NCBI RefSeq assembly: GCF_004010195.1
Contig: NC_057712.1
Location: 20,224,140 to 20,288,139 of the forward strand
Direction of reading: 5' to 3'
DNA: 64,000 nt
DNA from: Chiloscyllium plagiosum
Taxonomy: Eukaryota
Shown here: positions 2,800 to 57,320 of the stretch, in pieces
Layout: the number at the start of each line of letters is the position of its first letter
How positions within the stretch are numbered: the stretch's first letter is position 1
Position numbers and translations under genes: made by a program
The notes under the pieces: generated by a model
The model's database searches: none
Seen by the model: the letters and a program-made list of their open reading frames with translations, nothing else
What the model was told of the DNA's origin: nothing

Positions 2800-4180
2800 A
2801 CAGGATTTCACACGTTTCTATGAAATACCCCCTTATTCTTCTAAATTACAGTGAATACAAGCCCAATTGATCCAGTCTTTCCTCATATGTCAGTCTGGTG
2901 AATCTTCACTGGACTCCCTCAATAATAAGAATGTCCTTCCTCAGACTAGGAGATCAAAACTGCATACAATACTCAAGATGCACCCTCGCTGAAAATGTGT
3001 TGCTGAAAAAGTGCAGCAGGTCAGGCAGCATCCAAGGAGCAGGAAAATCGACGTTTTGGGCATGAGCCCTTCTTCAGGAAAAGTCTTTTCCTCAAGATGC
3101 ACCCTCATCAAGGCCCTGTAAAACTGCAACAAGCCATCCTCACTCTGATACTCAAATCCTCTCACTATGAAGGCCAACATGCCATAAGCTTTCCTGGTGC
3201 ACTTCCATACCAACCTTCCACAACTGTTCCACCATGACACCCAGGTCTCAATGCACCTCACATTTTCCTAAACTCATATAATCTGCCTTCCTGTTTTTGC
3301 GACCAAAGTGGATAACCTCATATTGATTCACATATGCATTTGCCAAGTATTTGCCCACTTTGCCAGTCTGCCCAAGTCACCCTGCAGCCTCTTAGCATCC
3401 TCCTCACAGCTTACACTGTCACCCAGCTTAGTGTCAACTGCAAATTTGGAGATACTGCATTCAATTCTTTTGTCCAAATCATTAATATATATTGTGTTCA
3501 GCTAGTATCCCACACTGAACCCTGCAGCAACCAACACATCACCACTTTCCACTCTAAAAAGCGCCTGTTTATTCTAACTCTCTGCTTCCTGTCTGGCAAC
3601 CTGTTCTCTATCCATGTCAATACATTACCTTGGATGCCATGAGTTTTAATTTTTCCTACTAATCTCTTGTGTGGAACCTTGCCAAAAATGTTTTGAAACT
3701 CCAGGTACACAACATCTACCGATTCATCCCTGTTCACTCTACTGGAAATATCCTCAAAAAAAATTCCAGAAGATTTGTCAAGCATGATTTCTCTTTAGTG
3801 AATCCATGCTGACTAGGACTGCTTTTGTCACCGCTTTCCAAGTGCTCAGTTATTACGTTCTTAATAATTGACTCCAGCATTTTCCCCATGACTGATGTTA
3901 GGTGAACGGGTCTATAACTCCCCATTTTCTCTCTCCTTCTTTTAAAGAGTGGGGTTACATTAGGTACCTTCCAGTCCATTGGAACTCTTCAAGAGTCTAC
4001 AGAATGCTAGAAAATGATCACCAATGTGTCTGCTATTCCTAGAATTATTTCCTTAAGTACACTGGGATGCAGAGCGCCAGGCCCTGGGGACTTACTGAGT
4101 TTTAATCCCAATAATTTCCCCAATACCATTTCCTTCAGTTCCTCCTTCATGCTTGAGCCTCTGTCCCCTAGCATTTCCTG
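2800..4180 (-). mobile_element. CR1 LINE RT fragment (frameshifted)
   Basis: WKVPNVTPLFK, YRPVHLTS, QHGF, KVPHKRL and QGSV motifs spread across broken ORFs. Confidence 0.9.
2988..3090 (-). mobile_element. Penelope-like short element (family A) with a mutated hammerhead core, inserted in a CR1
   Basis: 16-bp TSD CTCAAGATGCACCCTC (2972-2987 / 3091-3106). Minus strand reads CTGAAGA-AGGGC-TCAT-GCCC-AAAACGTC. Confidence 0.75.
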
Positions 4181-4426
4181 AAGGGAAAGAAGATTTAATA
4201 AGGTGACATAATAGTTTTGATCTTCAGGAGGAAAGTATATAATTGTGACATTATGATATGGCCTCTTCAATGGTCTGCATACCAATAACTTAAAATATTG
4301 ACAGGCTCTGCAGATATTTCCAACATTTCTGCTTTCTCCCAATATTTGTTATATGTTAAGTAACATTTTGGCTCACATCTGAAGGCTGTCAGTATTAAAC
4401 ATGACTTCCAACATGCTAATATCATT

Positions 4427-4736
4427 CAAAGTTTGTGCGAAGATTTGTAGCTCGGGTGCTCGTTGTTGTGGTTCTGTTCGCCGAGCTGGGAATTTGTGTT
4501 GCAGACGTTTCGTCCCCTGTCTAGGTGACATCCTCAGAGCTTGGGAGCCTCCTGTGAAGCACTTCTGTGATCTTTCCTCCAGCATTTGTAGCGGCAGATT
4601 CAAACCACTACAAATGCCGGAGGAAAGATCACAGAAGTGCTTCACAGGAGGCTCCCAAGTACTGAGGATGACACCTAGACAGGGGATGAATCGTCTGCAA
4701 CACAAATTCCCAGCTCGGCGAACAGAACCACAACAA
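4427..4736. mobile_element. Palindromic Penelope-like short element (family B) with hammerhead cores
   Basis: Inverted arms of about 130 bp (4462-4593 / about 4605-4737); 11-bp TSD CTAATATCATT. Minus strand reads CTGAGGA-T-GTCACCT-AGAC-AGGGGAC-GAAACGTC. Confidence 0.8.
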
Positions 4737-5460
4737 CTAATATCATTGTACATCATGTTAGAATATTGAGCTCTAGTAATATAATGAAATGTTTACAGTT
4801 AATTTTGTAAAATACACATATTTTACAAGTGTTTTGTTTTAAAGCAGCATGCCACATTGCATTATTTCATTCTGCTCATCAGGCAAATTATTCTTCAAAA
4901 CTATATTTTTATTTGGGAATATCCAACGGGCACAAATCTGAGCAGAGACTGACCAGCAGAGAGCAGCTCTATTTTCCATTATGTAATTTTTTCTAACAAA
5001 ATTCTTACCATATTCTAATTAAAATGGAGATGTATACTGACTTAATACACTCCCCTTTGGAAATACAATACAAGAAACAAACACTTTGCACTCACTTACC
5101 AAGAAAGGATCACAATAAGTGCAATTTGTACACAACAGTGACTGTTCTTCGAAAATCACCTATTGGCTATGAAGCATTTTCTGGTGTCCATATGGATTTG
5201 TTTTGTTAATAAATAAATAGACATGCTTTCTCTTAATATCCTTTCATTTATGTTTATCAGCACAGAACCAGAACTCCTCCATGTCTTATTATGCCTCACT
5301 TGAGGTAGCGCACTGAAAATCAAGCTTGTCACAAAAGTTAAAAGATTTTTTAAAATATGCAGAATTCCGCAATTTAGCTAACTTTCAGATCCAGGTGAAC
5401 AGAAAGCATGGACCAGGTTGGTATACTTAACAAGTATTACTATTTATTGCAAATAAATTA

Positions 5461-9500: not shown

Positions 9501-11183
9501 CAAACAGAGTGCTGTTATCATCCATCTCTCCTCCACACAACTATTTCTGCCATTATCCATAGGTCTCATTGTTTTACTAACACACTTATGTTGGAATAAA
9601 ACCCATTCTAACTTTAAGGGGTTATATACATTACAGCTGTATCCCTTATGTGCATTTTAAAAATTTATATTGCCACTAAGATGATGAATACTAGTGTTAC
9701 AAGAACAACCTGTTCCTAGTTCACATAATCCAGTGTAAGATATAACTACTCATAAGTAACGTGTGTACAAACTAAAAAAGGTCAAGAACCAGCCTAGTAG
9801 TTGCATGATATCATAACAATAATAAATCCCCAAATAGTCTTCAAACGCATAAATAACGCTAGAAAGATCACAATGGAGCAGACCTTTGAGAGTTAGACAT
9901 CCAAAGTCCAATGTTCCTCTTATACATATCATGTCTCATTACACATATGCTGCATCCATTTGAAGGTTGGATTTTAGTGCCGTACTTTCTGACAGTTGGA
10001 ATGAGGAAAGTTTTCCGACCGTCTCTTGTCATCCCTCACATTTGTTTTGCGGTTTGAGGAGGTCATGGAGCTTGAACTGCACAGTATGATAGCATCAGAT
10101 CAGCTGCCCACGAATATAGCACACGCCTGCATGAAGAGCTGTTGATGGTTGCGTATGAGGTGCACACTGATGGAATGTAAGCCCCTGCAGTCAATAAATA
10201 TTCTTGGTTGTTCTGGCAATATTCAAACAGTTTAATGTACAGTCAATGACATCCTATATCTGTAGAAAGCCAGCTAACCCCGTGAGACTGTGTGTTTTCT
10301 ACACATTCTGACTGGTGTTGTGCCTGACAAATCTTGAATACATCTCTGGCAGCATTCTGGAATTTTGGGCAGTGGTGACCTTGATAGCCACTGCTAATGT
10401 GGAGTTGGTAGACAGCTTCTAGGTGACCTTCTAGGAAGCTGTTGATCACCTTGATTCTCTTCCAAGGTCTGTTTTAAGGAAACGTGCGCTTGCTAACCTT
10501 TGCTGACCCCGAATGCACAATACCACAACTTTTAGAATTTTTATCCTTGGTTTCATATCCTTCCATATGTAAGAATCATTCTAATTTGATTGCAAAAAAC
10601 TCCCACATGCAGAAAATAACCCATCCCTGTGAAAGAAATATGATAAAACTCTTTTCCACTAGCAGACAATAAAGGAGCTGTAAGCACAGGAATTTACTGG
10701 CATGTATTCCAAGCTGCTTAGTTGGCCACAGTGCCTTTATGTTGTGTTCACTGGAGAATTTCAGGAAGTCTGGAAAACCCTTGGACAAACATAATTGTTA
10801 AGATGCTTGCATGCATGGCTGCACAGCAGCTGGAAATGTACCATGCAGACTTTAATTTAGGTTAAATATGGTAGTGTGCAGTGAAAAACTGGCCATGCAC
10901 AACCTCAAACTCTTATGTGAAAAACTGCTGTAGACCCAACATTGAACTGGGGTGCATGGAAATGGTGCTCTGACAATCCACCTCTCCTGAAGGAGTGGTG
11001 CATCTACATGCTCCATTGCAATGTGAAAATCAACAGACTAAATGTGGCTTCCCAACATACTCATTCCAAATTCCCAATGTCAATTTTAACCTACTATCCA
11101 CTTCCAGCAAATTAAATTCCCACATGTTATTTCTGCGTCAGTTTTAATAGTTTTAATTGTTTTGCAGTAACTAAGGCTAATTA

Positions 11184-11332
11184 CACACCAGGTTATAGTC
11201 CAACTGGTTTATTTGGTGGTTGTCTACCTGATGTACAAGCAGCGCTTTGAAAGCTAGTGTCTCCAAATAAACCACTGGTGTGGTGTGATTTTTAACTTTG
11301 TCCACCCCAGTCCAACACTGGCTCCTCCAAAT
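11184..11332 (+). mobile_element. Degenerate Penelope-like short element (family D)
   Basis: Imperfect inverted arms; TSD TAAGGCTAATTA / TAAGACTAATTA; degenerate core CTGATGT..AAGC-AGC-GCTT..GAAAGCTA. Confidence 0.6.
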
Positions 11333-11828
11333 TAAGACTAATTATGTCATTAAAAAATGTGATTGAACTGTAATTGACAGGCAAAGATACTGACTACTGA
11401 CTATTAGTACACAGACTTCACACTCTTCAATACATTTGAATAGGAAGTCAGACAGAAAGATGATCATTTCTTGAAGCATCGCAGACAGCAACTTCAGGAT
11501 CTCTATGTTTAACTGATCATATTAAGTTGTTTTTCACTTTATGTATACATGCTAATGATCACTCTTAGCTTCTCCTTTATCCTTACAGTAACATTTAGTC
11601 TGTGACACTATATAACAACGAAGTTTACAGATTTTGAATTGGAGCCTGATTGTCTGGAATTAATACTTTAAATGAAGTATTCAGAGTATCTTCAGATAAC
11701 ATTGATTTGGGTTTTCAGAGGACGCCTCTGCATGACACAAATATTATGCATTTTTGGAGGTCAGTCAGCACCTGAGCCTCAAATATTCCCCTACATTATA
11801 ATCTGCATTTGTCAAGTGTCTGCTAGAC

Positions 11829-15992: not shown

Positions 15993-16128
15993 GTTCTAAG
16001 AAAGGGCTACTCTACCCGAAACGTTACTTCTGATTTCTCTGCACAGATGCTGCCAGACCTGCTGAGTTTTTCCAGCAAATTCTGCTTTTGTTTCCGATTT
16101 AAAGCATTTGCAGTTTTTCGGTTTTTAC
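15993..16128 (+). mobile_element. Degenerate Penelope-like short element (family C)
   Basis: GTTCTAAGAAAGGG..CCCGAAACGTTA..CAGATGCTGCCAGACCTGCTGAG. Similar copies at 38615-38820 (palindromic), 39415-39530, 41198-41245 and 57153-57245. Confidence 0.6.
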
Positions 16129-22049: not shown

Positions 22050-23500
22050 AGTAGCAATCTGGTTACCACTGATGCACCGCCACCTCTTATGATTTGGCAA
22101 ACATTACAACGGGAACACGGTTAAGTGCCAACGTCGGGCGACAAATAAGGACCCAGAGAGAAAATAAAAAATCACGGCAAGCAGTTCCTTTGTGCCAAAT
22201 TCGCCTACGTCCGTCCGACTGTCATCTTAACTAAGTACATGTACTGTATTGGTACTAATGTGATACATGTGCGATTTTGACTGGCGAGATGCGATCCCGG
22301 TGCAGGGAGACAAAGCAATGGGTGCAGAACCTCCTTCGTTGTCCGCCTGGTTTCAAAATAAAAGCTTGCCACATTCCTGACCATTTCGGAGGTAAAGTTG
22401 GCAAACGCATAAACCGTAACGAGAGCGGATCCGGAGTTGTGGATCATTTCAGATTCCACTCCGCGCACAAACATACACACACTAGACCCACCTTTGTCTC
22501 TTTAGTTGGGGGTTCAGTTGCAAAACCTGTCGAAACAGAAGCTGTTCAATAAAGCCCTGTTCTTTCTCCGCTCCCGGAGACTCTGCTCAAATTCGAGTGT
22601 TGTGTATTTTTGTGCGTGAGACTGTGTGTTTGCTTCGCTCCTCTATTGTCTACATAGGTGGCACCGGCTGCACCCGGCAGTAGAAACGCGACACAGATTG
22701 CACTCCATGGACGGCTAGCTGCGTCACTGCCAGCATCGCCAGCCAGCCCACCTCCTGGGCTGCGCTTGCTGCACCAGCGGCCAATGAAACCCCAGCCACA
22801 ATCGAATCGGGAGAACGTGTATCTGTCTGTCTGTCTGTGTGGAGGGTGGGGGAGAAGCAATGTGTACAATGGCAGTGGAAGACCGGGTGAACCGGTCAGC
22901 GGGACAGTAACAATGGAACGCCGGGTGAACCGTTGCTAAGTGGGGTTACAGTGGTAATGGAACGCCGGGTGAACCGTTGCTAAGTGGGGGGTACAGTGGT
23001 AATGGAACGCCAGGTGAACCGTTGCTAAGTGGGGATACAGTGGTAATGGATCTCCGGGTGAACCGTTGCTAAGTGGGGGGTACAGTGGTAATGGAACGCC
23101 AGGTGAACCGTTGCTAAGTGGGGATACAGGAGTAATGGATCTCCGGGTGAACCGTTGCTAAGTGGGGATACAGTGGTAATGGAACGCCGGGTGAACCGTT
23201 GCTCAGCAGCGGCCGGTATATCGAGCCCCTTGTTGCCGTATGCCTCTTGTATTGAGGTGATAGCGACTCGACCTGGCCTTATAGCCTTGTTGTCGAAGTT
23301 GCATTGGTGGGATGAAGGGCTTGGTTCCATCTGTCCCCCTATGAGAGTCTTGGCACTGATTCCCTTCCCCCGCGAGGTTAAGTACTGCACGCGGGTTTTA
23401 ATGCGGTTGCAAAAACTAAAACAGAGGGACACATCCATTGCAATATTTAGGAAACGCCACTGGGGCTCTTTTACGCAGTGAGTGAAAGGGAAAGTTTAAT
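22050..23500. promoter_or_regulatory. CpG island, probable promoter of the neighbouring gene (RNF144A expected from human synteny)
   Basis: Abrupt rise in GC and CpG content in AT-rich DNA; CCAAT at 22781; CRE-like TGCGTCA at about 22720. No coding exon recognised, so gene identity is inference only. Confidence 0.6.
22904..23203 (+). repeat. Minisatellite/VNTR, about 7 copies of a 44-45 bp unit
   Basis: Unit ACAGTGGTAATGGAACGCCGGGTGAACCGTTGCTAAGTGGGGAT, with variants, in tandem. Confidence 0.95.
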
Positions 23501-26727: not shown

Positions 26728-26940
26728 AGGAGAAAGTGAGGTCTGCAGATGCTGGAGATCAAAGTTGAAACTTTATTGCTGGAACAGCACAGCAGGTCAG
26801 GCAACATCCAGGGAACAGGAGATTCGACGTTTCGGGCACAGGCCCTTCTTCAGGAAGGGCCTGTGCCCGAAACGTCGAATCTCCTGTTCCCTGGATGCTG
26901 CCTGACCTGCTGTGCTGTTCCAGCAATAAAGTTTCAACTT
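26728..26940. mobile_element. Palindromic Penelope-like short element (family A) with an intact minus-strand hammerhead core
   Basis: Near-perfect inverted arms of about 87 bp centred at about 26850; TSD (CTT)CTCTGTTTTCA at 26714-26727 / 26938-26951. Confidence 0.85.
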
Positions 26941-35420: not shown

Positions 35421-36867
35421 CTATTTTGAAGAAAATAATTTTAATACTCAAAATACTATACTTGCTATCACAATCATACCTACTCATGTTGTCCAGTTAC
35501 CTGAGAGATCATGCATTTATGCATAATGTATTTTTTAATCGTACTTCCCATGCCAGCTCTTCATGAGGCTGAACTGAGTAAAACTACCTTAATATTGTCA
35601 GTTAGTGATACATTATGAGTGTATGCCGCTGTGCACTTGAATCCAAGATTTAATCCAAAATTGACAAAAAACAAATTTCACACACTTTCATCCTTACAGC
35701 CACAGAGAAAGAGAAATGCCGAAATGCATTCAATCATTTTCAGCAGGACTTGAAAAGACTCAGAAGCAGAAGGAGAATGCAGTGAACCATCCGCCACAAT
35801 ATTATCACCACAATTCAGCATTATCATTCAGAGCACATTGAGGCTAGGATGTACTTATCATTCAGCATTTGATGTTTCCATGATCACCCCCCGCCCCGCC
35901 CGCCACAGCTGACTGCAGAATCTTCTGAAATGACCTATGCCTTGCCATTTTGGTTCAAAATGTATATATTATATGGTGCAGATTTCCATAAAAGCACAAT
36001 AACGTTAATTCTAAGTGAAAGCTTGTTTCCCTTGCTGGTTTCATGAGTTTTTTTTTACTTTTAATAAAATATTTACACATTCTCATTGCTCGATTGGGGA
36101 AACTACCCAAAAATAGACCTCCAGAATGATCACCACTAAATAAACAGAGCACAGCTCAAATTCTAAGACTTGAAGTAACTAGTTTTTCACAAAGCCACTA
36201 ATATTCAAACCTACAATGGAGACAATCCACGCTGAATACTATGGATATAAATAGCTCCATTCTCCAAAGTTAAGCTAATCACATTACCTATATTAAAGGC
36301 ATATTAATTTAGTTTGAAAATTCCACCCAGTCTTCAGCTGAGACAAGAAGAAATCATAACCAGTTGTAACCAAAATGAATACTTAAGAAGGCTAATTTTT
36401 AAAAAAAGGTCTTTCCAACTGCCATGTTTGTTACTGCGACTAATAAAGACAATTTCAGTTTTGAAAATGAGGTGTACAGAATTCGAAATGCTAACTCAGT
36501 TTGTCTCTCCAAAAGTGTGGCTTGACCTGCTGAGTTTCTCCAGCACTTTTGTAAGCCATTGTTCTGATGGCAGCAATGAGATCATTGTTGCTCTCAGGTG
36601 GTGCTCTATACTTAGTCTACCAGATTAAACAGCTAAGAACTCCCTAGAAAGCTGATAGACATATACTGTCAAGACATGTATACAAATAGTTTTTCCAAAT
36701 GTCAAGTGAGCAGAAACAGTGCCTTTGTCTGCTAGTTTAGGATTTTGGGCCAGTCAAAATAGCAATTTTCTCCAGCACAGTCACATTTGAGTTCTTTCCC
36801 TTATCCTCCATGTTCCTACAAATGGTTATAGTTTAGAATAAGAGGGAAGGTGAAGTAACTGAATTAC

Positions 36868-38282: not shown

Positions 38283-38614
38283 CTAGGCAAGAAAGACAAA
38301 TGGAATGGTTTGCATCGAATCATGAGATACCAACAGTTACAGATAGATAATTAACAAAATCTTGCCAAACTTTTGTCGAACAGCATATTTAGAAAATAGG
38401 AATCAGATTTCAGAACATAAACAATATGGTTAAAGTATATGGGCACTGAAGGAATTTCTGTCAATTTGCCTCTGGAAATGTGGTAAGATCACTGACTTGG
38501 TTTATTAATATTATTAATTGGTCTACATAACTATGAGATACTTAACATAGTCAGAAAGATTCATTTTTGTGAGCCTCCCAGTTCAGTAGCTAAACAAAAC
38601 AAAATGGAAATTTA

Positions 38615-38822
38615 AAATAAAACAAAAAGAACTGAGTTTTGCTGGAGATCTGAAATAAAAACAGAAATTGCTGGAGAAACTCAGCAGGTTTGGCAGCATC
38701 CATGGAAAGAGAAACAAAGTTAAAGTTTTGACCTAAGGGCTATTGGACTCCAAACGCTAACACTGTCTTCTCTCCACTGATGCAACTTGACCTGTTGATC
38801 TTCTCCAGCACTTCCTTTTTTG
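38615..38822. mobile_element. Degenerate palindromic family-C element in RSAD2 intron 1
   Basis: GCTGGAGAAACTCAGCAGGTTTGGCAGCATC inverted against GATGCAACTTGACCTGTTGATCTTCTCCAGC. Confidence 0.6.
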
Positions 38823-39414
38823 TATGTTAATGGAATTCCCAACATTCCGTGTCTGCAATGTTTGGAACCGCTATTACTCCATTTCCATATTAAAACACTT
38901 GAAAAATAAACTTTGCAAATGTGTGGTGAGTGGATGCTCCCTGTAACTTCAGCACTGAGCAAAGACTAACATTTCTTGAAGCAATGGTCCATCTACAGCT
39001 GAAATACTTCTGAATATTTTAATCAAGCTATTCAGACTGTAATGTCAGAGTTCTTGTGCAGGTAGGACCTGAATTTGGGCCTCCTGGTCCAGAGGTATCT
39101 CTACCACAATGCACCACTACCCACATTGTAGTAATAATATCACAGACCCAAACATTACATTGTGTGTCAATGGCTGGCTGCAACCGATCGTTTCCTCTAT
39201 TTGGTCGAACACTCTCCACCCTATCTCTTCTCTCCCTATTGCATATCAGTCATTAGCAATGGTATTTTGTACTTTTGCCCATTGTACCTGTTGCACGCTT
39301 CCATGTCAATAAGCGACTTTAATAAGATCCCTATAATCATGCAAAAGAAACAACTGTGACTTGTATCCAAAACATCTCCAGAGAAGTGGATTGTAAAAGG
39401 TGTAAATAACAATT

Positions 39415-39530
39415 TTGAGGGTCACTGGACCCGAAACGCTAACTCTGGTTTCTCTCCACAGATGCTGCTGGACTTGCTGAGCTTTTCCAGCAATTTCTGT
39501 TTTTGTTTCTGATTTCCAGCATCCGCAGGT
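39415..39530 (+). mobile_element. Family-C element in RSAD2 intron 1
   Basis: GAGGGTC-ACTG-GACCC-GAAACGCTAACT followed by the shared family-C body. Confidence 0.6.
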
Positions 39531-39686
39531 CATTTAGGATTTTTAAAATCATTTTTAAAAACCCTTATAGTAGAAGAGCATTCTCTCCCAATTAATTTTG
39601 AACGGGTAATGAGCAGCCACAACATCATTCTGAACCAAGAGAAATTGAACTTTCTCTTGCAAAACCTAATTCCGCTGCTTGCTTAC

Positions 39687-40489: not shown

Positions 40490-41191
40490 CATGAGAGACC
40501 TTGGAGTACAGGTTCATAGCTTCTTGAAAGTGGAGTCGCAGGTAGATAGGATAGTGAAGAAGGTGTTTGGTATGCTTTCCTTTATTGGTCAGAGTATTGA
40601 GTATGGGTGTTGGGAGGTCATGTTGCGGCTGTACAGGACTTTGGTTAGGCCACTGTTGGAATATTGCGTGCAATTCTGGCCTCCTTCCTATCAGAAAGAT
40701 GTTGTGAAACTTGAAAGGGTTCAGAAAAGATTTACAGGGATGTTGCCAGGGTTGGAGGATTTGAGCTATAGGGAGAGGTTAAACAGGCTGGGGCTGTTTT
40801 CCCTGGAGTGTCGGAGGCTGAGGGGTGACCTTATAAAATCGTGAGGGGCATGGACAGGATAAATAGACAAAGTCTTTTCCCTGGGGTGGGGGAGTCTAGA
40901 ACTAGAGGGCATAGGTTTGGGGTGAGAGGGGAAAGATATAAAAGAGACCTATGGGGCAACTTTTACACACAGAGGGTTGTACGTGTATGGAATGAGCTGC
41001 CAGAGGAAGTGGTGTAGGCTGGTACAATTGCAACATTTAAAAGGCATTTGGATGGGTGTATGAATAGGAAGGGTTTGGCGGGATATGGGCCGGGTGCTGG
41101 CAGGTGGGACTAGATTGGGCTGGGATATCTGATTGGCATGGACAAGTTGGACTGAAGGGTCTGTTTCTTTGCTGTACATCTCTATGACTCT
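40490..41191 (+). mobile_element. CR1 LINE 3' fragment
   Basis: RDLGVQVH..LVRPLLEYCVQFW..RRLRGDL; tail CTCTATGACTCT. Confidence 0.92.
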
Positions 41192-43385
41192 AAGTCATAC
41201 CTTTAACTCTGTTTTCTCTCCACTGATTCTGCAAGACCTGCTGAGTTTCTCCAGCACTTTCTCTTTTCAATATTAATAATTGCCTGAAAATGGCAGGGGA
41301 TTGGAGACAACAACCAGAATTTTGCAGAGTTGGCAGAAATTCCATCATTGATAGAACATAGAACAGTAAAGCATAGGAACGTCCCTTCAGCCCAAGATGT
41401 TGTACTGAACATGACACCAAATTAAGCTAATCCCTTCTCCCTGCCCTTAGTCCATATTTCTCCATTCCTTGCATATTCATGTACTTATCTAAAAGTCCCT
41501 AAATGCCCCTATTGTATCTGTCTCCACCACTATCCCTGGCTGTGCATTCCAGACTACTACCACTCTCTTGTAAAACAACTTGCTCCTCACATCTCCTTTG
41601 AATCTTCCCCTTCTAACCTTAAATGAATGCCCCACTAGACATTTCAATTGTGGGATTGTTGCTGCAATCTGAAGACCCACATCTGCAGGGGCCTTACTTT
41701 GTTGGCTGCAATGCTTAAGAATAGAACCTTTTCTCCAAGAACTGTTCCCCCCCCACCCCACCACACACACAGAATAAGACAGAGCGGCCCCACAGATCTG
41801 CAAATAGAGAATGAGGTTGCAATGAGGGCTGTTTGCCGTCAAAGGCTGGTAAATTGGGTCACTGAAGACAGAAAGCACTATTACTATGGGGGCGATCATT
41901 GTCACTTGTGAGGTGATTCCGTGCAGCATTCCATGGGCCAAACAGTTCCCAAACTAAAGTCCCTCCACATTACTGCCAAGAGACTATGAAAGGCCACTAA
42001 GTTTGGCTGCACAATGAAGTGGTAGGCCTTTCTGGACTTGGACAAAATGCCCATGTAGGCAGCAAATGGCCTTTAATTTACCACTTAAGTGGGTCACTTT
42101 AGTTGCCAGCCTATCCATCATCTTTCCATCTGCCAGCGAAATGAAGTTGCAAAAGGAAAGTGTCTGGCATTACACTCAATGTGTTTTTGTCCCATTTTGT
42201 TGACCTTCTTACCAGCCAGCCCATCCCCAAAGGTCTCGTAAAATCCAGTGCATGCTGTTGGTATTTACTATAGCTGAAAGCACATTAGCAGGACACAATA
42301 ATTGATGTATTTGCCCATTCCTCACTTCATTAGCCAGAGACGATACTTGTACTGACGTCTTGAGTGAAGGCCACCTCCTTTGGACCCTGTTTGGCTGATA
42401 TTTGTTTTGTCTGTCAAATTTGCCTGTGAGTGTTACCCCTAATGGAATGTCGATTGTATTCTGATGTCAGTCACAGTATCTGTGAGAAAAAATGTTCTCT
42501 CACAGCTTTAATATTCCTGTTTATTTCCATTCATTCCATGGTTCTCTTTATAATAGTAAATCTCCTGCAGGATTCCTCTCCATGTGATTGTTTGCAACTT
42601 TAGCTTATAGTAAGACATATTAAGGAAGGTCTTGACTTCTGCTCCTCTCTGTCATGGGATTGCATAACCCTGATTTCTCCAGCATTCTTGTCGAAGGGAG
42701 GTACGAATTGAAGCCACAGTCAGATCCGTCAAGATCTTATTGAATAACAGAGCAGACTAGAGGGGCCAATGACCTACTCCTGATTTTCATCCTGTAAGTT
42801 TGCTGGCGTTCTACTATGTATTTTTGTGTTCTCCTTTTGGTTTGCCTTCTAATTGCTCTGTTTCAGTACAAGTGTCACATTTTCTCCAGCATTAAAAGGG
42901 ATCATAGAAAATAGAAAGGCATTGAGGCAGGCACAACAAGCGCATGAAAAAGTGAAGCAATGTCAAAATTGGGAGACGAAATGCATCCAAATCCTTAGAA
43001 GTTGACTCCTGACATTGCCCTCTTTGACCGTCTGCTCTCACTGACCTCTGGGCATGTTCTGAAGAGCTTCATGTGAGTACAAGGATATCTTTCCCCATTT
43101 CCATCCCCTGTACCAAAGCCCATTTGTTGTATGAAAATTATCAAAAGTTACCTTTAATTCAGGTTACTTTTTATGAAATCTCACAATCAAGTACTGAAGC
43201 AATGATTTAAACTTTATTGCATGTAGCAATCAAAATAAGACCTCTCATGGTAAGCAAGTTAGGCCTCATGGCGCAACTTGGCTACTACCCCATTAATGAT
43301 GGACTTTAGCTACGATCGCAACCAACAGTGTCTGCCATGATACGTGTCCAGGGTTCAATCCTTTTGCAGCATTGTTTTTCCATGT

Positions 43386-45460: not shown

Positions 45461-48120
45461 CATAGAACGTAGAACATAGAACATTACAGCGCAGTACAGG
45501 CCCTTTGGCCCTCGATGTTGCCGTCACCCTGTCATACTAATCTGAAGCCCATCCCATCTATTCCATGTACGTCCATTTGCCTGTCCAATGATGACTTAAA
45601 TGAACTTAAACTTGGCGAATCTACTACTGTTGCAGGCAAAGCATTCCATACCCTTACTACTCTCTGAGTAAAGAAACTACCTCTGACATCTGTCTTATAC
45701 CTATCTCCCCTCACTTTAAAGTTGTGTCCCCTCGTGTTTGCCGTCCCCATACTTGGAAAAAGGCTCTCCTTGTCCACCCTATCTAACCCTCTGATTATCT
45801 TATATGTCTCTGTTAAGTCACCTCTCAACCTTCTTCTAACGAGAACAGCCTCAAGGCCCTCAGCCTTTCCTCGGAAGACATTCCTTCCATACCAGGCAAC
45901 ATCCTAGTAAATCTCCTCTGCACCTTTCCAAAGCTTTCACATCCTTCTTATAATGCGGTGACCAGAACTGTACACAATACTCCAAGTGTGGCCGTACCAG
46001 AGCTTTGTACAGCTGCAGCATAACCTCCTGGTTCCGGAATTCAATCCCTCTATTAATAAAGGCCAAAACACTGTATGCCTTCTTAACAACCCTGTCAATC
46101 TGGGTGGCAACTTTCACGGATCTGTGTACATGGACACCGAGATCTCTCTGCTCATCTGCACTCCCAAGAATCTTACCATTAGCCCAGTATTTTGCATTCT
46201 GATTACTCTGTCCAAAGTGTATCACCTCACACTTGTCCACATTAAGCTCCATTTGCCTCCTTTCAGCCCAGCTCTGCATCCTATCTATGTATCTCTGCAA
46301 CCTACTACATCCTTCGTCACTAACCACAACTCCACCAACCTTTGTGTTGTCCGCAAATTTACTAACCCACCCTTCTGAGCCCTTATCCAGGTCATTTATA
46401 AAAATGACGAACAACAGTAGACCCAATACCAATCCTCGCGGTACGCTGCTAGTAACTGGACACCAAGATGAACATGTTCCATCAACTACAACCCTCTGTT
46501 TTCTTTCAGCAAGCCAATTACTGATCCAAACTGCGATGTCTCCCACAATCTCATTCCTCCGCATTTTGTATAATAGCTTACTGTGGGGAACCTTATCGAA
46601 CACCTTGCTGAAATCCATATACACCACATCAACCGGTTTACTCTCATCTACCTGTTTGGTAACTTTGTCAAAAAACTCAATAAGATTCGTTAGGCACGAC
46701 CTACCCTTCAGAAAACCGTGCTGACTGTCCCTGATCACAATATTCTTTTCTAGATGGTTATAAATCCTATCTCTTATAACCTTTTCCAACACTTTACGAA
46801 CAACTGAAGTGAGACTCACTGCTCTGTAATTACCAGGATTGTCTCTACTACCCTTTTTGAACAAGGGAACCACATTTGCTATCCTCCAGTCCTCCGGCAC
46901 TATTCCAGTAGACAATGATGATTTGAAGATCAATGCCAAAGGCTCGGCAGTCTCTTCCCTTGCTTCCCAGAGGATCCTAGGATAGATCCCATCCGGCCCA
47001 GGGGACTTGTCTATTTTCACATTCTGCAGTATTTCTTGTGAACCTCAATCTCTTCGAGTCTAGATGCAAGTATCTCTGTATCTTCCTCGTCAATATTTTC
47101 ATTTTCTATAGTGAATACTGTCGAAAAATATTTATTTAGTGCTTCCCCTATCTCCTCTGACTCCACACACAACATCCCACTATTATCCTTGATTGGCCCT
47201 AATCTAACTCTTTGAGGAGAAAGTGAGGTCTGCAGATGTTGGAGATCAGAGCTGAAAATGTGTTGCTGGAAAAGCGCAGGTCAGGCAGCATCCAGGGAAC
47301 AGGAGAATCGACGTTTCGGGCATAAGCCCTTCTTCAGGAATGATTCCTGAAGAAGGGCTTATGCCCGAAATGTCTCCTGTTCCCTGGATGCTGCCTGACC
47401 TGCTGCGCTTTTCCAGCAACACATTTTCAGCCCTAATTTAACTCTCATCATTCTTTTATTCCTGACATACCTATGGAAAGCCTTAGGGTTAACCCTGATC
47501 CTATCCGCCTGATCCTATCCGCCAACAACTTCTCATGTCTCCTCCTGGCTCTTCTGAGCTCTCTTTTTAGGTCTTTCCTGACTTCCTTGTAACCCTCAAG
47601 CGCTCTAACTGAGTTTTCACATTTTGTCCTAACATAAGCCTTCTTCTTCTTGACCAGGGATTCCACTTCCTTAGTAAACCACGGCTCACGTGTTCTACAT
47701 CTTCCTCTCTGCCCCCAGCTGTTACTCTTGCTCGGTGGAGTACACCTACCCCTTTCTAAAGTAAACCTGACAGAATTATGATCGCTGTCTCCAAAGTGCT
47801 CACCTACTTCCAAATCTAACACCTGGCCAGGCTCGTTACCCAGTACTAAATCTAAAGTGGCTTCACCCCTTGTAGGCCTGTCTACATACTGTGTCAGGAA
47901 GCCCTCCTGCAAACACTGGACAAAAACTGAGCCATCTATAGTACTCGTAGTGATCCCAGTCAATATTTGGATAGTTGAAGTCCCCCATGACAACTACCCT
48001 GCCTCTCTCACTCCTATCGAGAATCATCTTTGCTATCCTTTCCTCTACATCTCTGGGACTATTCGGAGGCCTATAGAAAACTCCCAGCATGGTGACTTCT
48101 CCTTTCCTGTTTCTAACTAT
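45461..48120 (-). mobile_element. Long CR1 LINE (endonuclease-RT ORF2, disrupted)
   Basis: Endonuclease motifs (GVFYRPPNS, MGDFNYPNIDW, DSDHN); 386-aa RT ORF whose catalytic motif reads FADN; (GTTCTAT)n-type tail. Confidence 0.93.
47212..47429. mobile_element. Palindromic Penelope-like short element (family A) inserted in CR1 ORF2
   Basis: Inverted arms centred at about 47341; 16-bp TSD GCCCTAAT(C/T)TAACTCT at 47196-47211 / 47430-47445. Confidence 0.85.
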
Positions 48121-49541: not shown

Positions 49542-49553
49542 CCATAAGTGGTG

Positions 49554-49966: not shown

Positions 49967-50060
49967 CGACGCGGTGTTTTGTTTACTGAGGGCTGCGTTT
50001 CGCTTCTGCAGAGGCGGCGGTTTCGGTCCGAGGAAGTGCCCTCAGGGAGCGGGCGGTACC

Positions 50061-50678: not shown

Positions 50679-51050
50679 GTAAGCCGACCCGCACCCCCCC
50701 ACTCCCCACCATGATTCTTTAAGGGAGCTGTATTTAACAAGATACATTGGAGAACACTAAGACGCAACTTGTACATTGGTTACATTAGAAACACATAAAT
50801 TAGGACCAGTGTAGGCCATTCAGCTCATTAACTCAATCGATAATATATTTTTTCTCTTCCTGCCAACTTCAAATTTTCCCATCTGATGCTCCATTTGCCA
50901 GAATTTGCCCAGTCACTGAACCTATGTATCAGTCGGCATCTTTGTTATGTCACCTTCACAATGTACTTTCCTACCTATCTTAATGCAGTTTTCAAATTTG
51001 ACTGCCATGCCTTAATCCCCTCATCTAAGTTATTGATACATATTTTAAAA

Positions 51051-51288
51051 GGCGAAAGTGGGGACTGCAGATGTTGGAGATTAGAGTCAGGAGTGTGGCG
51101 CTGGAAAAGCACAGCAGGTCAGGCAGCATCCGAGATGCAGGAGGATCAATGTTTTGGGCAAAAGCCCTTCATCAGTAAAGGGTGATGAACGGCTTTTGCC
51201 CTGATGAAGGAATTTGCCCAAAACGTCAATTCTCCTGCTCTTTGGATGCTGCCTGACCTGCTGTGCTTTTCCAGTATCACACCCACGA
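51051..51288. mobile_element. Older palindromic family-A-like element in CMPK2 intron 1
   Basis: Inverted arms (CTGGAAAAGCACAGCAGGTCAGGCAGCATCC / GGATGCTGCCTGACCTGCTGTGCTTTTCCAG); degenerate CTGATGA cores. Confidence 0.75.
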
Positions 51289-52151
51289 CATTTTTAAAGA
51301 CCTAGCACAGACCCTTATGGGACCTCAATTGTCATATCTGGCCAATCTGAAAAAGACCTACTTATATGTAATCTGTTTTCTGTAAGCCAGGAAATCTTCT
51401 ATTCATGCTAATATGTTATCTCCTACTCCACAAGCTCCTGCTTCGTTCAATAGTTCTTTTATGTAGAGCCTTGTCAAAAGCCTTGTGATAATCCAAGGCT
51501 CCTCCTTATCCATATTTCATTTACTTCTTCAAACAATTCCAATAAACTGATGAAACATGATTTTCCTTTCACTAAACAACACCTTGAGTTTTTCCAAGTG
51601 TCCAATTAGATATTTGGAATCAGATGTGCTATGACACACCTCTGCAGCAGGTGGGACTTTGAATCAGGTCTTCAGGACCAGAGATAGGAACACTACCGCT
51701 GTGCTACAAGACCTATTCAAGTACCCAGTTATAACCTCCTCAATGATTGATTCTAACACTTTCCTATCAGAGAATTCAAGGTCACTTGCCTATAGATTTT
51801 TATTTTGCTAGCTACCTCCCTTCTTGAATAGAGGTTTTATGTTTGCTACTTTCCTTTAAGGCTCCAGGATGAAGTCTCGGCATGCAGGGATTAATTAGTT
51901 CCATTACTTTCTAAATTGTAAGCTGCCAGAGGAAGTGGTGGAGGCTGGTACAATTACAACATTTAAGAGGCATTTGGATGGGTATATGAATAGGAAGGGT
52001 TTGGAGGGATATGGGCCGCGTGCTGGCAGGTGGGACTAGATTGGGTTGGGATATCTGGTTGGCATGGACAAGTTGGACCGAAGGGTCTGTCTCCATGCTG
52101 TACATCTCTATGACTCTATGACTCTAATTAAGCCAGGCAACAGTGTCAAAT

Positions 52152-52355
52152 GAGGAGAAAGTGAGGGCTGCAGATGCTGGAGATCAGAGCTGAAAATGTG
52201 TTGCTGGAAAAGCGCAGCAGGTCAGGCAGCATCCAGGGAACAGGAGAATCGATGTTTCGGGCATAAGCCCTAAAGAAGGGCTTATGCCCGAAACGTCGAT
52301 TCTCCGGTTCCCTGGATGCTGCCTGACCTGCTGCGCTTTTCCAGCAACACATTTT
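52152..52355. mobile_element. Palindromic family-A element in CMPK2 intron 1, central ribozyme core deleted
   Basis: Inverted arms of about 80 bp; 14-bp TSD CAACAGTGTCAAAT at 52138-52151 / 52356-52369. Confidence 0.85.
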
Positions 52356-53884
52356 CAACAGTGTCAAATCCCAAACTTATGTCTCTGACTCATTTCATGC
52401 AGAGTGATTCTACTTTGCATCCATTGCCTCCTCATTCAGCCAATGTGCAACATGCTGTCCCTGCAGGTGGACACTGGAACGTGTCACTAATTTTACCAGC
52501 ACTGGTGGAACAAACCAGAACAAACTGGTGGGCCCACTGGCCAAACAAGGGCTGCAGTTTCATTGAGACTGACAAATGACAGCTGCTAAGGCTGCAAGGA
52601 GAGGGAGAGAGAACCTTTGCCTTGTGCCTTAGTGAAGAACACCTGGGGAATTTATAATGGGAATCCTCCAGTGATGGTGTCATTGAAGTATTTGGATGCC
52701 CACTCACTGCCCATTGGATGAGTCCCTCCTTGGCCCATGAGTTCTATGTTCTAGGGCGGCTTTCCTGACACAGCTCACAATCCTGCCTGGAAGCGGGAAG
52801 TGGGTGTTTGTGGGCTGAAGTGGGAAATGGGAGAATTGGTGGTGATGTTGAGTTGGCACATTCTGCTGCTAACTGCTTGTTAAAATTATCACTAAAAGTC
52901 CAATTAATTGACTGCCCATCTGCTGTAAACAAGCACCCACACTGCTTTCATTCACACCACACTGGGAGGCTTGGAATATGCTCACAGATGTGGATTACAT
53001 TCAGCAACCCAATGCATTAAAAAAAAACAAGAAAATTATTTGCTTAAGTAACATCCAAATTTTTTAACTTTTCATTTACTGCAAAAATCTTTCCCTGTAC
53101 GTGCGTGAGAAAAAAAAGCAATAAAATTATTAAAGCAACTAAAGCCATAAAATAAATACACAAAACGCATAAAATGATAAAAACTCAAAGACGATAAAAC
53201 TGCTAAATGCCATGCAAAGGCAAATCCCCATCAGCTTTTAATTCACTCTGCCCATTACTTGATCCTAAGCATTCTCATTGTCTCAGAAACACACATACAT
53301 ACACACAAGGACTCTCGCATGCACCCAGATATAGACCCACAAGTACAGCAAAGGGCAAATCAATAGAGAGTCAGGCATGCATGGACAAAGACAAACATGC
53401 CCTTGCCCACAGTCAGACATGCATGTGTGCACAGACAGAGACAATACCAGAAATGTGACAGAAAGTATGTGCTGATCACCAAGCCCCAAGACTCATCAGT
53501 CTCACCCGGAGCATAATACTTGGGACTCAATGATAAAAATAGCTAATTTTTTTTAATATAACTGTTATCAAAGATAACTGGAACATCACCAGGTTTCTTT
53601 AACAAACTCAAAATAATTCATTTATTATGAACAAAAATTAATCTTAAAGTAAACAGCAGCTACTCATTAACATCTAAGCTATGAACCATAATTAAAATTA
53701 TATCCCATTTAATCCCACATACAAACACACATGTAAACAAGTCTTTGCAGATATGAAGACAAAAAGAGAAATAAACCACTGTCATGGTCAAACGTTTGTA
53801 ATCAAAAGGTAACTTAATTATCTTAATAGGTCCATGAATGTGCTCTTGAAAATACTGAATTGCTGTAGCTGTAGATTGATGACA

Positions 53885-55140
53885 CAGTTGAAGTTTTAAA
53901 TTGGAGAAAGGCCAATTTTGATGGTATTACGCAAGAACTTTCAAAAGCTGATTGGGGACAGATGTTCGCAGGTAAAGGAACAGCTGGAAAATGGGAAGCC
54001 TTCAGAAATGAGATAACGAGAGTCCAGAGATAGTATATTCCTGTTAGGGTGAAAGGAAAGGCTAGTAGGATAGGGAATGCTGGATGACTAAAGAAATCAC
54101 ATCTACTGCTCTGCCCTCATCAATCTTCTTTGTCACTTCTGAAAAAAAATTAATCAATTTTGTGAGACATGATTTCCCACGCACAAAGCCATGTTGACTA
54201 TCCCGAATCAGTCATTGCCTTTCCAAATACATGTACATCCTGTCCCTCCGGATTCCCTCCAACAACTTGCTCACCACCGAGGTCAGACTCACCGGTCTAT
54301 AGTTCCTTGGCTTGTCTTTACCACCCTTCTTAAACAGTGGCACCATGTTGGCCAACCTCCAATCTTCCGGCACCTCACCTGTGACCATCGATGATGCAAA
54401 TATCTCAGCAAGAGGCCCAGCAATCACTTCTCTAGCTTCCCACAGAGTTCTCGGGTACACCTGATCAGGTCCTGGGGATTTATCCACCTTTAACCATTTC
54501 AAGACATCCAGCAGTTCCTCCTCTTTAATCTGGACATTTTGCAAGATGTCACCATCTATTTCCCTACAGTCTAAATCTTGCGTATCCTTTTCCATAGTAA
54601 ATAATGACGCAAAATATTCATTTAGTATCTCCCCCATTTTCTGTGGCTCCACACAAAGGCCGCCTTGCTGATCTTTGAGGGGCCCAATTCTCTCCCTAAT
54701 TACCCTTTTGTCCTTAATATATTTGTAAAACCCCTTTGGATTCTCCTTAATTCTATTTGCCAAAGCTATCTCATGTCCCCTTTTTGCCCTCCTGATTTCC
54801 CTCTTAAGTATACTACTACTTCCTTTATACTCTTCTAAGGATTCACTTGATCTCTCCTGTCTGTACCTGACATATGCTTCCTTCTTTTTCTTAACCAAAC
54901 CCTCAATTTCTTTAGTCATCCAGCATTCCCTATACCTACCAGNNNNNNNNNNNNNNNNNNNNNNNNNNNNNNNNNNNNNNNNNNNNNNNNNNNNNNNNNN
55001 NNNNNNNNNNNNNNNNNNNNNNNNNNNNNNNNNNTAGGTACATCCACATACTGAATCAGAAAATTGTCTTGTACACACTTAAGAAATTCCTCTCCATCTA
55101 AAACTTTAACACAATGGCAGTCCCAGTCGATGTTTGGACA
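53885..55140. mobile_element. Rearranged CR1 (plus-strand piece 53885-54097; minus-strand pieces 54098-54942 and 55035-55140) spanning an assembly gap
   Basis: CR1 ORF2 motifs in both orientations; 92 N at 54943-55034. Confidence 0.85.
54943..55034. other. Assembly gap
   Basis: Run of 92 N. Confidence 1.
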
Positions 55141-55964
55141 TTGATGATGTCAGTTGTACTGCTTCCTGCTGTAATCCAAAATTAAGAAATTGAATCAGTT
55201 TTGCTTTCAATTTCCATCCTTCTCTTAACTTCACTTGGTTTATCTCTAATCCTTCCCTCTCCTTTCTCAATTTTGTTGTTTCCATTTTTTGGGAATAAGC
55301 TTACACCCTGCTTCCTGCAACAATTACATTCTATTTTACTAGTTCCTCCAATTCTATTCCTGCTGTGATATTACCACCTGCCACAGAGGAGCATCTGACA
55401 TGTTCTCCTTTTTCATCAACTGAGTATTCCCTTCCAGTTTAGTTGACAGGGCCCTCAGCCAAGTCCAACCTATTTCTGCCTCAATTCTACCCTCAACCAT
55501 TCCCCTTCCACCCAGAACAATGATCGGGTTTTTGCTTGTCCTTACTTTCCACTTAGCAGTCTTTGCATTCTTTCCTCATGCTCCCACATTTCTGGCACTT
55601 CCAGCAGAGTGCCTCCAGCAGAAGTACCTTCTGTAATCCTCCACTGTTAGCTCTGCATGAAGATCGTTTCCTCCAAGGCAGTCTGGCCTACTCCTGAACC
55701 ACTCCGACACCTCCAACCGTATAACTAGGAAAATAGAGAGGACTTTAAATAAAACATGTGAGTGGGGGTGGGGGTGGGGATGGGGGTGGGAGTCAAGGGA
55801 TCAAGTTTGGGAACATGTGGTACATCAAACAGTGGAGTCAAGGCCAAAGCGAAAGATATTATTAAGGTAAGTGATAAACAGATCATGGTAGGAAGGGATA
55901 TAGAAACAATTATTATGGTAAATCAACAAGTAAAGCTAGAATTTATAGAAAAGAATTAAATGAT

Positions 55965-57320
55965 AAAACTGATGGCTCTGTTTCTGAATGCACAGATGAA
56001 TTGAGAATGCAAATAGAAATAAGTGAGTATGAACCTATAGCCATTATAGAGGAATAGCTGTGAATGAATGGATTGGGATCTGAAACTTGAAGGCTACAGG
56101 ACATTTAGGAAGGACAGGGAAGCAAGGAAAAAGTGGAAGGGTGGTTATGTTACTTAATAATGGTACCGGCACAGTAGAGAGGGATGACTTAAGTTCAGGA
56201 ACTCAAAACAAGAAAACAGTTTAGGTAGAGATACTAATTGATAAAGGCAAGAAGTTGCTTGTGAGAATAGTGCACAGACCAGTTAACAGCAACTGGATGG
56301 AGGGTGGAACACAAAGGAAGAAAACATTAGAGTTTGTCAGAAAGTTATGACTAAATTCATGAGAGATTTTAATCTACATATTGATCAAAAAAAGTCAAAT
56401 GGGCAAAGGTAGCCTCGATGAGGAGTTCATGGAATATTTCCATCATATTTAGTTTTTGAGAACAACATGTTCTGGAGCTAACCTGGCAGCAAGCTGTACT
56501 GCACCTGGCATTGTGCAATGAAATAGGATTAATTAATTGAAGGTAAAGGTGCTCCTGTGTAGCAGCAACCATGAAATGTTTGAATTTTACATTCATTTTG
56601 GGGGAGAGAGGAATGGGTCCGAGACTATTTTTTAAAAAATAATTAAATAGGGCAGTTATTAAGATAGGAAACAGCTGGCTAAAGTGAATTGGCAAACTAG
56701 GCCGAAGGATATGCAGTGCCAGACACTTAAAGAAATATTTCAGAATATACAGAATCGTAACATTTCAAAGAGTAAGAAAAATTCAGAGGGACACACCCAC
56801 CAACCACAGTTAACTAGAAATATTAAAAACAGTATTAAACTTAAAAAGAAATGCATATCATTTTCCAAAGGTTGGTGGCAGGTAAGATTGGACAGAATAT
56901 AACAAACAAGAAAGCATAACAAAAAAATTAATGAGGGGAAAATTAAGGTATGAAAAAGCTAGACAGAAATATAAATTCAGATAGGAACTGAACATTAGGA
57001 ATTTTTATAAATATTTTAAAAAGAAAAGACCATGGAAAATTAGTAATGTAAAATAAGGAATGGAAGATCTGTGAACAAATATTTTGCATCTGTCTTTAAT
57101 ATAGAGCATACCATCAATATCCCAGAAACACTCAGGAAAATACAGTCAACAGAGTTCTGAAGGAAGGTCACTGGACTCGAAACCTTAACTCCATCTTTTC
57201 TCCAGAGATACTGCCAGACTTGCTGAGATTCTTCAGCATCTGAAGTTCTTTTATCACAATCACCATAGAATTTCTACTGAGTAAATTGTTGGAGCTATGA
57301 GCTAACAAGTGCCTGGGTCC
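55965..57320 (+). mobile_element. Old degenerate CR1 (endonuclease region)
   Basis: Remnants EGYRTFRKDR, DFNLHID, KYFASVF. Confidence 0.65.
57153..57245 (+). mobile_element. Family-C element in CMPK2 intron 1
   Basis: AGTT-CTGAAGG-AAGGTC-ACTG-GACTC-GAAACCTT-AACT, a degenerate hammerhead core. Confidence 0.6.

What the first reader, a model, noticed from the sequence alone, without database searches (positions are those of the whole stretch)
2972..57245. Multiple families of TSD-flanked, hammerhead-ribozyme-bearing short retroelements across the viperin-CMPK2 locus
Seen: at least 11 insertions of 100-310 bp in four sequence families. A: 2988, 26728, 47212, 51051, 52152. B: 4427. C: 15993, 38615, 39415, 57153. 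D: 11184. Intact or degenerate copies of the hammerhead layout CUGANGA - stem II hairpin - GAAA - palindromic ACGU/AGCU - NUH are present; five have clear 11-16 bp TSDs. Several have an asymmetric tail-to-tail palindromic form with one longer arm. Established: minimal type I hammerheads with a palindromic stem III, active as dimers, occur in the terminal repeats of Penelope-like elements, which also make inverted insertions; non-autonomous hammerhead retroelements are known as retrozymes. Inference: these are shark PLE-derived non-autonomous ribozyme elements, apparently very abundant and likely annotated only as unknown repeats or MITEs.
Basis: partly seen in the sequence, partly recalled or inferred. 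Interest (0 to 1): 0.75.

Follow-up and report, generated by a model that had tools for sequence, protein, structure and literature searches.

The report
Truncated, inverted shark Penelope retrotransposon stubs
These short hairpin-like repeats are real insertions carrying a miniature self-cutting-RNA motif; one family is the cut-off end of a protein-coding Penelope-type jumping gene and the others likely are too, so they are ordinary stubs, probably built afresh at each landing site, rather than a new self-spreading ribozyme element.

Summary
All 11 insertions exist, plus two decayed C copies. Five have 11-16 bp target-site duplications beyond chance, and two have empty sites in paralogous LINEs. 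Only 3 hammerhead cores are intact (0 in 12 shuffles). Family B is the ORF-end/ORF-start junction of an autonomous Penelope/Poseidon-type shark element. It encodes residues 1-54 of an RT protein (89%) and the C-terminus of an RT+GIY-YIG protein. Start and stop codons both lie inside the hammerhead. Arms are head-to-head, not tail-to-tail. All 7 two-armed copies have exactly one 36-58 nt tail and a different centre. This is the published Penelope 'inverted truncated copy plus tail' pattern. The hairpin is predicted to bury the ribozyme, and no copy is a tandem, so these are not retrozymes. I did not find the parents of A/C/D. A and C are related. One open oddity: 13 of 14 A/C arms start within about 7 nt of the hammerhead's front edge. 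This scan has noted the same thing many times on other shark DNA (165 matching notes, at least 14 genomes).

The parts
2988..3090 (-). Family A single arm without tail; hammerhead C3 at 3077, N17 at 3050, G12 mutated; inserted in a LINE fragment; TSD 2972-2987 / 3091-3106 (16 bp)
   Evidence: empty site in paralogous LINE copies at 45980 and 33103
4427..4736 (.). Family B head-to-head insertion. Long arm on - (about 4594-4427, 36-nt tail, intact core C3 4537). Short arm on + (about 4590-4736, C3 4662, ATG 4668, stop 4676-4678). TSD 4416-4426 / 4737-4747 (11 bp)
   Evidence: both junctions present in organism B contigs and the left junction in organism C
11184..11332 (+). Family D: long arm on + (C3 11228, degenerate core, AGCU helix III, internal deletion), short inverted arm 11184-11216; TSD 11172-11183 / 11333-11344 (12 bp, 1 mismatch)
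15994..16128 (+). Family C single arm with tail, degenerate core; possible 8-10 bp TSD
26728..26937 (.). Family A head-to-head insertion; long arm on - with intact core (C3 26853) and 37-nt tail; TSD 26714-26727 / 26938-26951 (14 bp)
36483..36549 (+).
38612..38828 (.). Old family C head-to-head insertion in viperin intron 1; arms diverged; 43-nt tail on the left arm; TSD within chance
39412..39545 (+). Family C single arm in viperin intron 1; starts at stem II (CUGANGA absent); no TSD
41191..41277 (+).
47212..47429 (.). Family A head-to-head insertion in a LINE fragment; long arm on - with intact core (C3 47337) and 41-nt tail; TSD 47196-47211 / 47430-47445 (16 bp, 1 mismatch)
   Evidence: empty site in paralogous LINE copies at 25124-25139 and 54682-54697
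51050..51289 (.). Older family A head-to-head insertion in the first intron of the putative CMPK2 gene; extra partial hammerhead copy in the centre; 36-nt tail
52152..52355 (.). Family A head-to-head insertion; the tailed arm lacks CUGANGA, the tail-less arm has it (one change); TSD 52138-52151 / 52356-52369 (14 bp)
57150..57245 (+). Family C single arm with a 5-bp helix I and degenerate core; no convincing TSD

Best explanation
These are real, target-duplicating insertions of the last 90-170 bases of Penelope-like retrotransposons (shown for family B, likely for A, C and D), likely written into the genome by the element's own RT/GIY-YIG protein and cut short at the 5' side, with the minimal hammerhead riding along as part of that end and predicted to be inactive in the hairpin copies. 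Shown: insertion with 11-16 bp TSDs; two fixed 3' ends about 36-43 nt apart in A, B and C; head-to-head arms; one tail per two-armed copy; a different centre in each copy; B equals the junction where one ORF unit ends and the next begins. Inferred from in vitro work on the anole Poseidon element: the protein nicks both strands 11-16 bp apart and primes reverse transcription from both nicks. One priming is at the distal start site (tailed arm) and one at the proximal site (tail-less arm), on uncleaved RNA. The two short cDNAs are joined at their truncated ends through 1-5 nt of microhomology. Single-arm copies would be events in which only one nick was extended.
For: B long arm translates to residues 1-54 of shark RT protein P0002 (89% identity, E 1e-23). 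Another B frame matches the last 28 residues of P0014, which carries RT and a GIY-YIG-type C-terminus (71%). Other genomic B copies continue upstream of 4590 with agreement 0.80-0.83 in 3 of 3 DNA runs, and these letters read as the residues after the endonuclease in P0014 (read by eye). The ATG inside the hammerhead aligns with the start of two distant homologues, with conserved KRL and PEL motifs. ORF start at stem II, internal RT start sites defining a tail, and extension of both strands are reported for anole PAc (PMC11167929). The inverted truncated copy and one-sided 30-40 bp tail are described in PMC8557442, and with 8-10 bp TSDs in PMC3846280. 7 of 7 two-armed copies have exactly one tail and 7 different centres. 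In A52152, B4427 and C38615 neither arm contains the other (read by eye). A26728 arms differ at 1 of 81 positions but at 8-11 from A47212 and A52152 arms. Other genomic copies show varied fold-back joints (table 5c, 12 of 159 rows shown).
Against: No coding parent was found for A/C, and D was not searched. Loose ends just 5' of the A hammerhead agree only 0.32-0.34 in 413-503 contigs per DNA run. So most listed A copies stop at one place, which random truncation does not explain. The ends of A51051 and C38615 are decayed and their arms differ (16 of 78 for A51). Clade placement of B rests on motifs and nearest hits, not on a tree with named references. No empty orthologous site was seen for B; organisms B and C share the insertion.
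Confidence: 0.8

Rival explanations
1. Families A and C are a SINE-like non-autonomous PLE partner. A short RNA that begins a few bases before the hammerhead (own start site, or the 5' end of the parent mRNA) is the usual template and is mobilised in trans. The fixed 5' end is then the end of the template, not an abortive stop.
For: 13 of 14 mappable A/C arms start within about -7 to +7 of C3 (offsets read by eye, two decayed fragments left out). Genome-wide loose ends lose agreement a few letters upstream of the A core. No coding parent was found.
Against: 3' ends, tail and inversion are the same as in coding family B. 5' ends still scatter over about 12 nt. No Pol III-type head precedes the core in the arms read. 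Unchecked earlier notes on this genome report a GIY-YIG remnant upstream of family A. RT stalling at the folded or protein-bound hammerhead would give the same pattern.
Confidence: 0.3
2. Retrozymes in the published sense: tandem hammerhead repeats that self-cleave as dimers, circularise, and are reverse transcribed from circular RNA.
For: Type I hammerhead layout with palindromic helix III and long TSDs. Family RNA exists (2498 reads laid from about 2 in 100 of one poly(A) run). Non-LTR retrozymes are reported in one chondrichthyan genome (bioRxiv 2026.07.22.740005).
Against: 0 of 13 copies is a full head-to-tail tandem. Only 3 cores are intact. No arm begins at the base after the cleavage site; most keep sequence 5' of it, which cleavage would remove. 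The hairpin buries stem II. B is coding.
Confidence: 0.07
3. The second arm is made by fold-back of the first cDNA (self-priming) rather than by a second priming on RNA.
For: Near-identical arms with 1-5 nt centres in A26728, A47212 and A52152. Self-priming was proposed for head-to-head PLE inversions in PMC3846280.
Against: In 3 of 7 copies the tail-less arm has 5' sequence that the tailed arm lacks, and vice versa, so neither can be a copy of the other. A 1-nt loop (A47212) cannot fold. Later small deletions could mimic both points.
Confidence: 0.2
4. MITEs or other DNA-transposon derivatives with terminal inverted repeats.
For: Long inverted arms, short length, high copy number.
Against: TSD length varies from 11 to 16 bp with unrelated sequences. 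The arms are asymmetric, single-arm copies carry TSDs, and B encodes pieces of an RT protein.
Confidence: 0.02

Closest known systems
EN+ Penelope-like element insertions with inverted 5'-truncated pLTR, one-sided tail and TSD (Adineta Pen2/Pen2a, PMC3846280, passages read; general scheme PMC8557442, passages read)
   Same: Head-to-head inverted truncated copy, 30-40 bp tail on one arm, variable-length TSD, pLTR plus tail covering the first codons of the ORF.
   Different: Here the whole insertion is only 100-310 bp and TSDs are 11-16 bp rather than 8-10. A/C copies stop at a narrow zone at the hammerhead's front edge.
Poseidon element PAc of Anolis carolinensis (PMC11167929, main text parts 1-2 of 4 read)
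   Same: ORF starts at hammerhead stem II; two 3' ends inside the ORF define the tail; the short B arm ends in an AC-rich run; sequence 5' of the cleavage site is retained.
   Different: B ends about 69 and 105 nt after the ATG, against start sites reported at 111-118 nt. In B the upstream ORF runs into the hammerhead and stops 8 nt after the next ATG, leaving no untranslated gap.
Minimal hammerheads (min-HHR) of metazoan PLE repeats (PMC4209133, parts 1-2 of 4 read)
   Same: Core, unpaired base between 9 and 10.1, G10.1-C11.1, palindromic 15.2-16.2, short helix I; mostly single motifs from truncated copies, some pairs on opposite strands 100-700 bp apart.
   Different: Stem II is 4-5 bp in A/C rather than 7-8. 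Sharks are not named in the parts read.
Metazoan non-LTR retrozymes (PMC7229834, passages read; bioRxiv 10.64898/2026.07.22.740005, parts 1-3 of 5 read, supplements closed)
   Same: Short, non-coding-looking, type I hammerhead, PLE-related, long TSDs.
   Different: Retrozymes are head-to-tail tandem repeats, mostly with canonical hammerheads, and give circular RNA. These copies are single or head-to-head, have minimal hammerheads, and B is a coding-element fragment.

Membership tests
EN+ Penelope-like element (family B) | Linked to an ORF with PLE-type RT and C-terminal GIY-YIG endonuclease | tested here: met
   P0002 N-terminus and P0014 C-terminus both map into B. RVT_1 hits. Pfam GIY-YIG is only weak, E 0.024 on relative P0119; a recalled GIY-YIG pattern matched 30 of 121 proteins and DKG 97 of 121.
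EN+ Penelope-like element (families A, C, D) | Linked to an RT/GIY-YIG ORF | tested here: inconclusive
EN+ Penelope-like element (all) | Inverted 5'-truncated copy, head-to-head, with a 30-40 bp tail at one end | tested here: met
   7 of 7 two-armed copies; overhang 36-43 nt in A, B and C, and 58 by the aligner in the deleted D copy.
EN+ Penelope-like element (all) | Variable-length TSD from endonuclease-primed insertion | tested here: met
   5 of 13 clear, 1 probable; empty sites in paralogous LINEs for 2 of the 4 A copies whose flanks were searched.
Penelope/Poseidon clade (family B) | [quoted passage not shown] | tested here: met
   P0014 linker read by eye shows no cysteine motif (criterion); ATG at stem II. 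No tree with named references was built.
Minimal type I hammerhead | CUGANGA, stem II, GAAA, palindromic helix III, NUH, short helix I | tested here: met
   3 intact cores against 0 in 12 shuffles. At four places where the B copy breaks the motif (4538, 4660, 4671, 4691), the commonest letter among other copies fits it.
Minimal type I hammerhead | Compensatory changes in the stems | tested here: inconclusive
   Between families, helix I pair 1 is C-G (A, D), U-A (C) or A-U (B), and helix III is ACGU or AGCU. In A the loop varies while the stem is kept in 8 of 9 arms. Read by eye, with no phylogenetic control.
Minimal type I hammerhead | Self-cleavage (dimer or protein-assisted) | not testable with these tools
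   Needs a bench assay.
Non-LTR retrozyme | Head-to-tail tandem units, each with a complete hammerhead | tested here: not met
   0 of 13 copies; only a partial duplication in the A51051 centre.
Non-LTR retrozyme | No protein-coding content | tested here: not met
   Fails for B; undecided for A/C/D.
Non-LTR retrozyme | Circular RNA intermediates | not testable with these tools
   The one RNA run laid is a poly(A) single-cell library.
MITE | Symmetric TIRs and a fixed short TSD | tested here: not met
   Asymmetric arms and 11-16 bp variable TSDs.

The most novel reading that the evidence does not exclude
Shark genomes hold a very large fossil record of PLE double priming: each hairpin is one event in which both nicked strands primed reverse transcription, always one at the distal and one at the proximal start site. 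In families A/C the template is a dedicated short RNA headed by an uncleaved hammerhead, a promoterless SINE-like passenger. The hammerhead would then act as an RT stop or protein-binding signal rather than a cutter. In family B the ribozyme is also dual-coded with the stop and start codons of consecutive ORF units.
Probability: 0.25. Interest if true: 0.55.

Novelty: new member of a known kind. Interest (0 to 1): 0.27.

Why it matters
As a discovery it is modest: hammerheads in PLE ends, truncated solo copies, inverted copies and tails are all in print. Its use is as data on an open mechanism. The strict one-tail-per-hairpin rule, the non-nested arms and the narrow 5' stop zone bear on how PLE inverted insertions form and what the hammerhead does. 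Recognising these stubs also keeps them from being annotated as MITEs, miRNA hairpins or exons.

Tried and rejected
Rfam: no hammerhead family among 15 matches; the best were miRNA models matching the palindromes, far below their gathering scores. Search for an A-family coding parent: word-index search, 0 of 3 candidates. Profile search gave 6 hits, none with RT; two are shark gene models containing an element-like piece and four look like repeats or chance. The metagenome pattern scan gave 17 loci, all 19-30 bp matches with no PLE protein. The run search listed no RNA holder for the unique stretch used; this is not evidence either way. RNA reads showed no pile of ends at predicted cleavage sites 3050, 4504 or 4695, only 8 molecules at 4591; the library type cannot test cleavage. 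Only 2900-4900 was laid, so C, D and the other A sites have no cross-species test. CMPK2 is supported only by a thymidylate-kinase-like lead (score 0.85), a P-loop and recalled synteny; Pfam and PDB searches gave nothing for it. A motif scan for the gene at 1-23000 found nothing. MITE and retrozyme readings were rejected as above. Seven literature searches listed no paper on shark PLE stubs; Repbase/Dfam could not be checked, and bioRxiv supplements were closed.
Full report
Observation. All 11 listed insertions are in the sequence, and two more decayed C fragments lie near 36500 and 41200. Five have target-site duplications above anything in 400 random window pairs (scores 11-16 against a random maximum of 10). 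D is probable and the rest are within chance. For A47212 and A2988, both flanks align to adjacent positions in other LINE copies of the window, overlapping by one copy of the 16-bp target, which is an empty site. A strict minimal-hammerhead scan finds 3 intact cores against 0 in 12 shuffles. Rfam does not detect them. A and C align along about 80 nt and form one group. The host region holds viperin exons on the minus strand (E 1e-24 to solved viperin). CMPK2 on the plus strand is likely but only weakly supported by my calls (12, 69). The named protein hits point to a bamboo-shark-like host; this is an inference.

Anatomy. In every two-armed copy the hammerhead-sense 5' ends meet at the centre and the 3' ends face the TSDs. 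This is head-to-head in the terms of PMC3846280, not tail-to-tail. A arms end either about 58-62 nt or about 96-98 nt after the cleavage position (55 in one arm with a 5-nt deletion). B arms end at 41 or 77 nt. All 7 two-armed copies pair one long end with one short end, and all 7 centres differ. If each arm chose its end freely, 7 of 7 mixed pairs would have a chance of about 1 in 128 (my arithmetic). In A52152, B4427 and C38615 the tail-less arm holds 5' sequence that the tailed arm lacks, so neither arm can be a plain copy of the other (read by eye). The two arms of A26728 share subfamily letters: 1 difference in 81, against 8-11 to A47212 and A52152.

Family B is part of a coding element. 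A 40-residue frame starting at the ATG inside the B hammerhead found one protein, P0002, a shark RT protein. B covers its residues 1-54 at 89%. A different frame of B matches the last 28 residues of P0014, an RT protein with a GIY-YIG-type C-terminus; its stop codon falls at 4676-4678, 8 nt after the ATG at 4668. Contigs of other B copies in three DNA runs continue upstream with agreement 0.80-0.83, and the letters read as the residues following the endonuclease. Two distant homologues start at the same methionine and keep KRL, which in B is encoded by the GAAAC core. This is the layout of anole Poseidon PAc (PMC11167929). There the ORF starts at stem II, reverse transcription starts at two internal sites that define the tail, both DNA strands are nicked and extended, and uncleaved RNA is the main template. 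At four places where this B copy breaks the hammerhead, the commonest letter among other copies fits it. The motif therefore belongs to the family and has decayed locally.

Families A, C and D share the same architecture, but I could not link them to an ORF (D not searched). Unchecked earlier notes on this genome say a GIY-YIG remnant lies upstream of some A copies. What sets A/C apart is the 5' end: 13 of 14 mappable arms begin within about 7 nt of C3, and none begins at the base after the cleavage site. Among the loose ends listed (24 of 3642 rows shown), those just upstream of the A core lose agreement after a few letters. Either RT stalls at the folded motif or a short RNA begins there; my data cannot separate these.

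Ribozyme function. A transcript through a two-armed copy carries one sense hammerhead preceded by its own antisense. Folding gives a near-perfect hairpin with stem II pair probability 0.0 in all 6 folds of 4 A/B copies, and 0.0 in the D fold. The single-arm A2988 keeps stem II at 0.86-1.0 but has lost G12. No copy is a tandem, so the dimer geometry described in PMC4209133 and the retrozyme definition are not met. Family RNA is present: 2498 reads were laid from about 2 in 100 of one poly(A) run, only 22 of them 99% alike or better, so they come from other loci. B reads are mostly hammerhead-sense if the usual library orientation holds (180 against 25 on one arm, 43 against 8 on the other); A reads are about 60% sense. 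More than 50,000 contigs were laid on 2900-4900 in each of three DNA runs, most of the depth on A and B. This shows high abundance but is not a copy number.

Mechanism. Shown: insertion with TSD, two fixed 3' ends, head-to-head arms, unique centres, B equal to a coding junction. Inferred: staggered nicks, priming from both, one start site per arm, early termination, microhomology joining. Rivals are a dedicated short A/C template (0.3, compatible with the rest), fold-back copying (0.2), retrozymes (0.07) and MITEs (0.02).

Novelty. The kind is known from PMC3846280, PMC8557442, PMC4209133 and PMC11167929. My seven searches listed no paper on these shark families, but repeat databases could not be checked. 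The scan has recorded the same finding many times (165 notes in at least 14 genomes). I consulted those notes after the B-to-ORF link was found; they supplied one paper and the idea of comparing centre junctions. Verdict: real, a new member of a known kind, interest 0.27.

Noticed in passing
window 4662-4695 (+) and 4537-4504 (-): In family B the ATG of the next ORF unit and the stop of the previous one lie 8 nt apart inside hammerhead stem II, so the repeat unit seems to have no untranslated gap; the conserved KRL is encoded by the catalytic GAAAC.
   Followed up: partly
window 39440-39462 (+), also 16025-16047: In family C a branch-point-like word overlaps the cleavage site and is followed by a pyrimidine tract, CAG and then ATG, like a 3' splice site about 20 nt after the hammerhead; family A has GG instead of AG there. 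Read by eye.
   Followed up: no
proteins P0123 and P0125: Gene models from a bamboo shark and a horn shark contain translated A/C-like pieces starting at that ATG; probably annotation artefacts or exonisation. This suggests the group is shared across shark orders.
   Followed up: partly
After sharks, the nearest listed relatives of the B-family RT are mostly from parasitic flatworms (best 50% identity over 94%). This may reflect annotation bias; horizontal transfer was not tested.
   Followed up: no
window 38612-38828: The two arms of this C copy look like different subfamilies, or are simply old.
   Followed up: no
window 3071-3097: The 5' junction of A2988 has a 10-nt filler forming a small palindrome, and the TSD start resembles the hammerhead core, suggesting microhomology at the 5' joint.
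   Followed up: no
window 38612-39545 and 51050-52355: Long self-complementary inserts lie in first introns of viperin and the putative CMPK2, two interferon-induced genes (recalled); they would form double-stranded RNA in pre-mRNA and could be ADAR targets.
   Followed up: no
window 22901-23211: A 44-45 bp minisatellite of about 7 units next to a GC-rich stretch.
   Followed up: no
window 45860-47044 (-) and many shorter pieces: LINE reverse-transcriptase fragments (RVT_1) and several SINE-like repeat families (D6, D7, D12, D14) make up much of the window.
   Followed up: no
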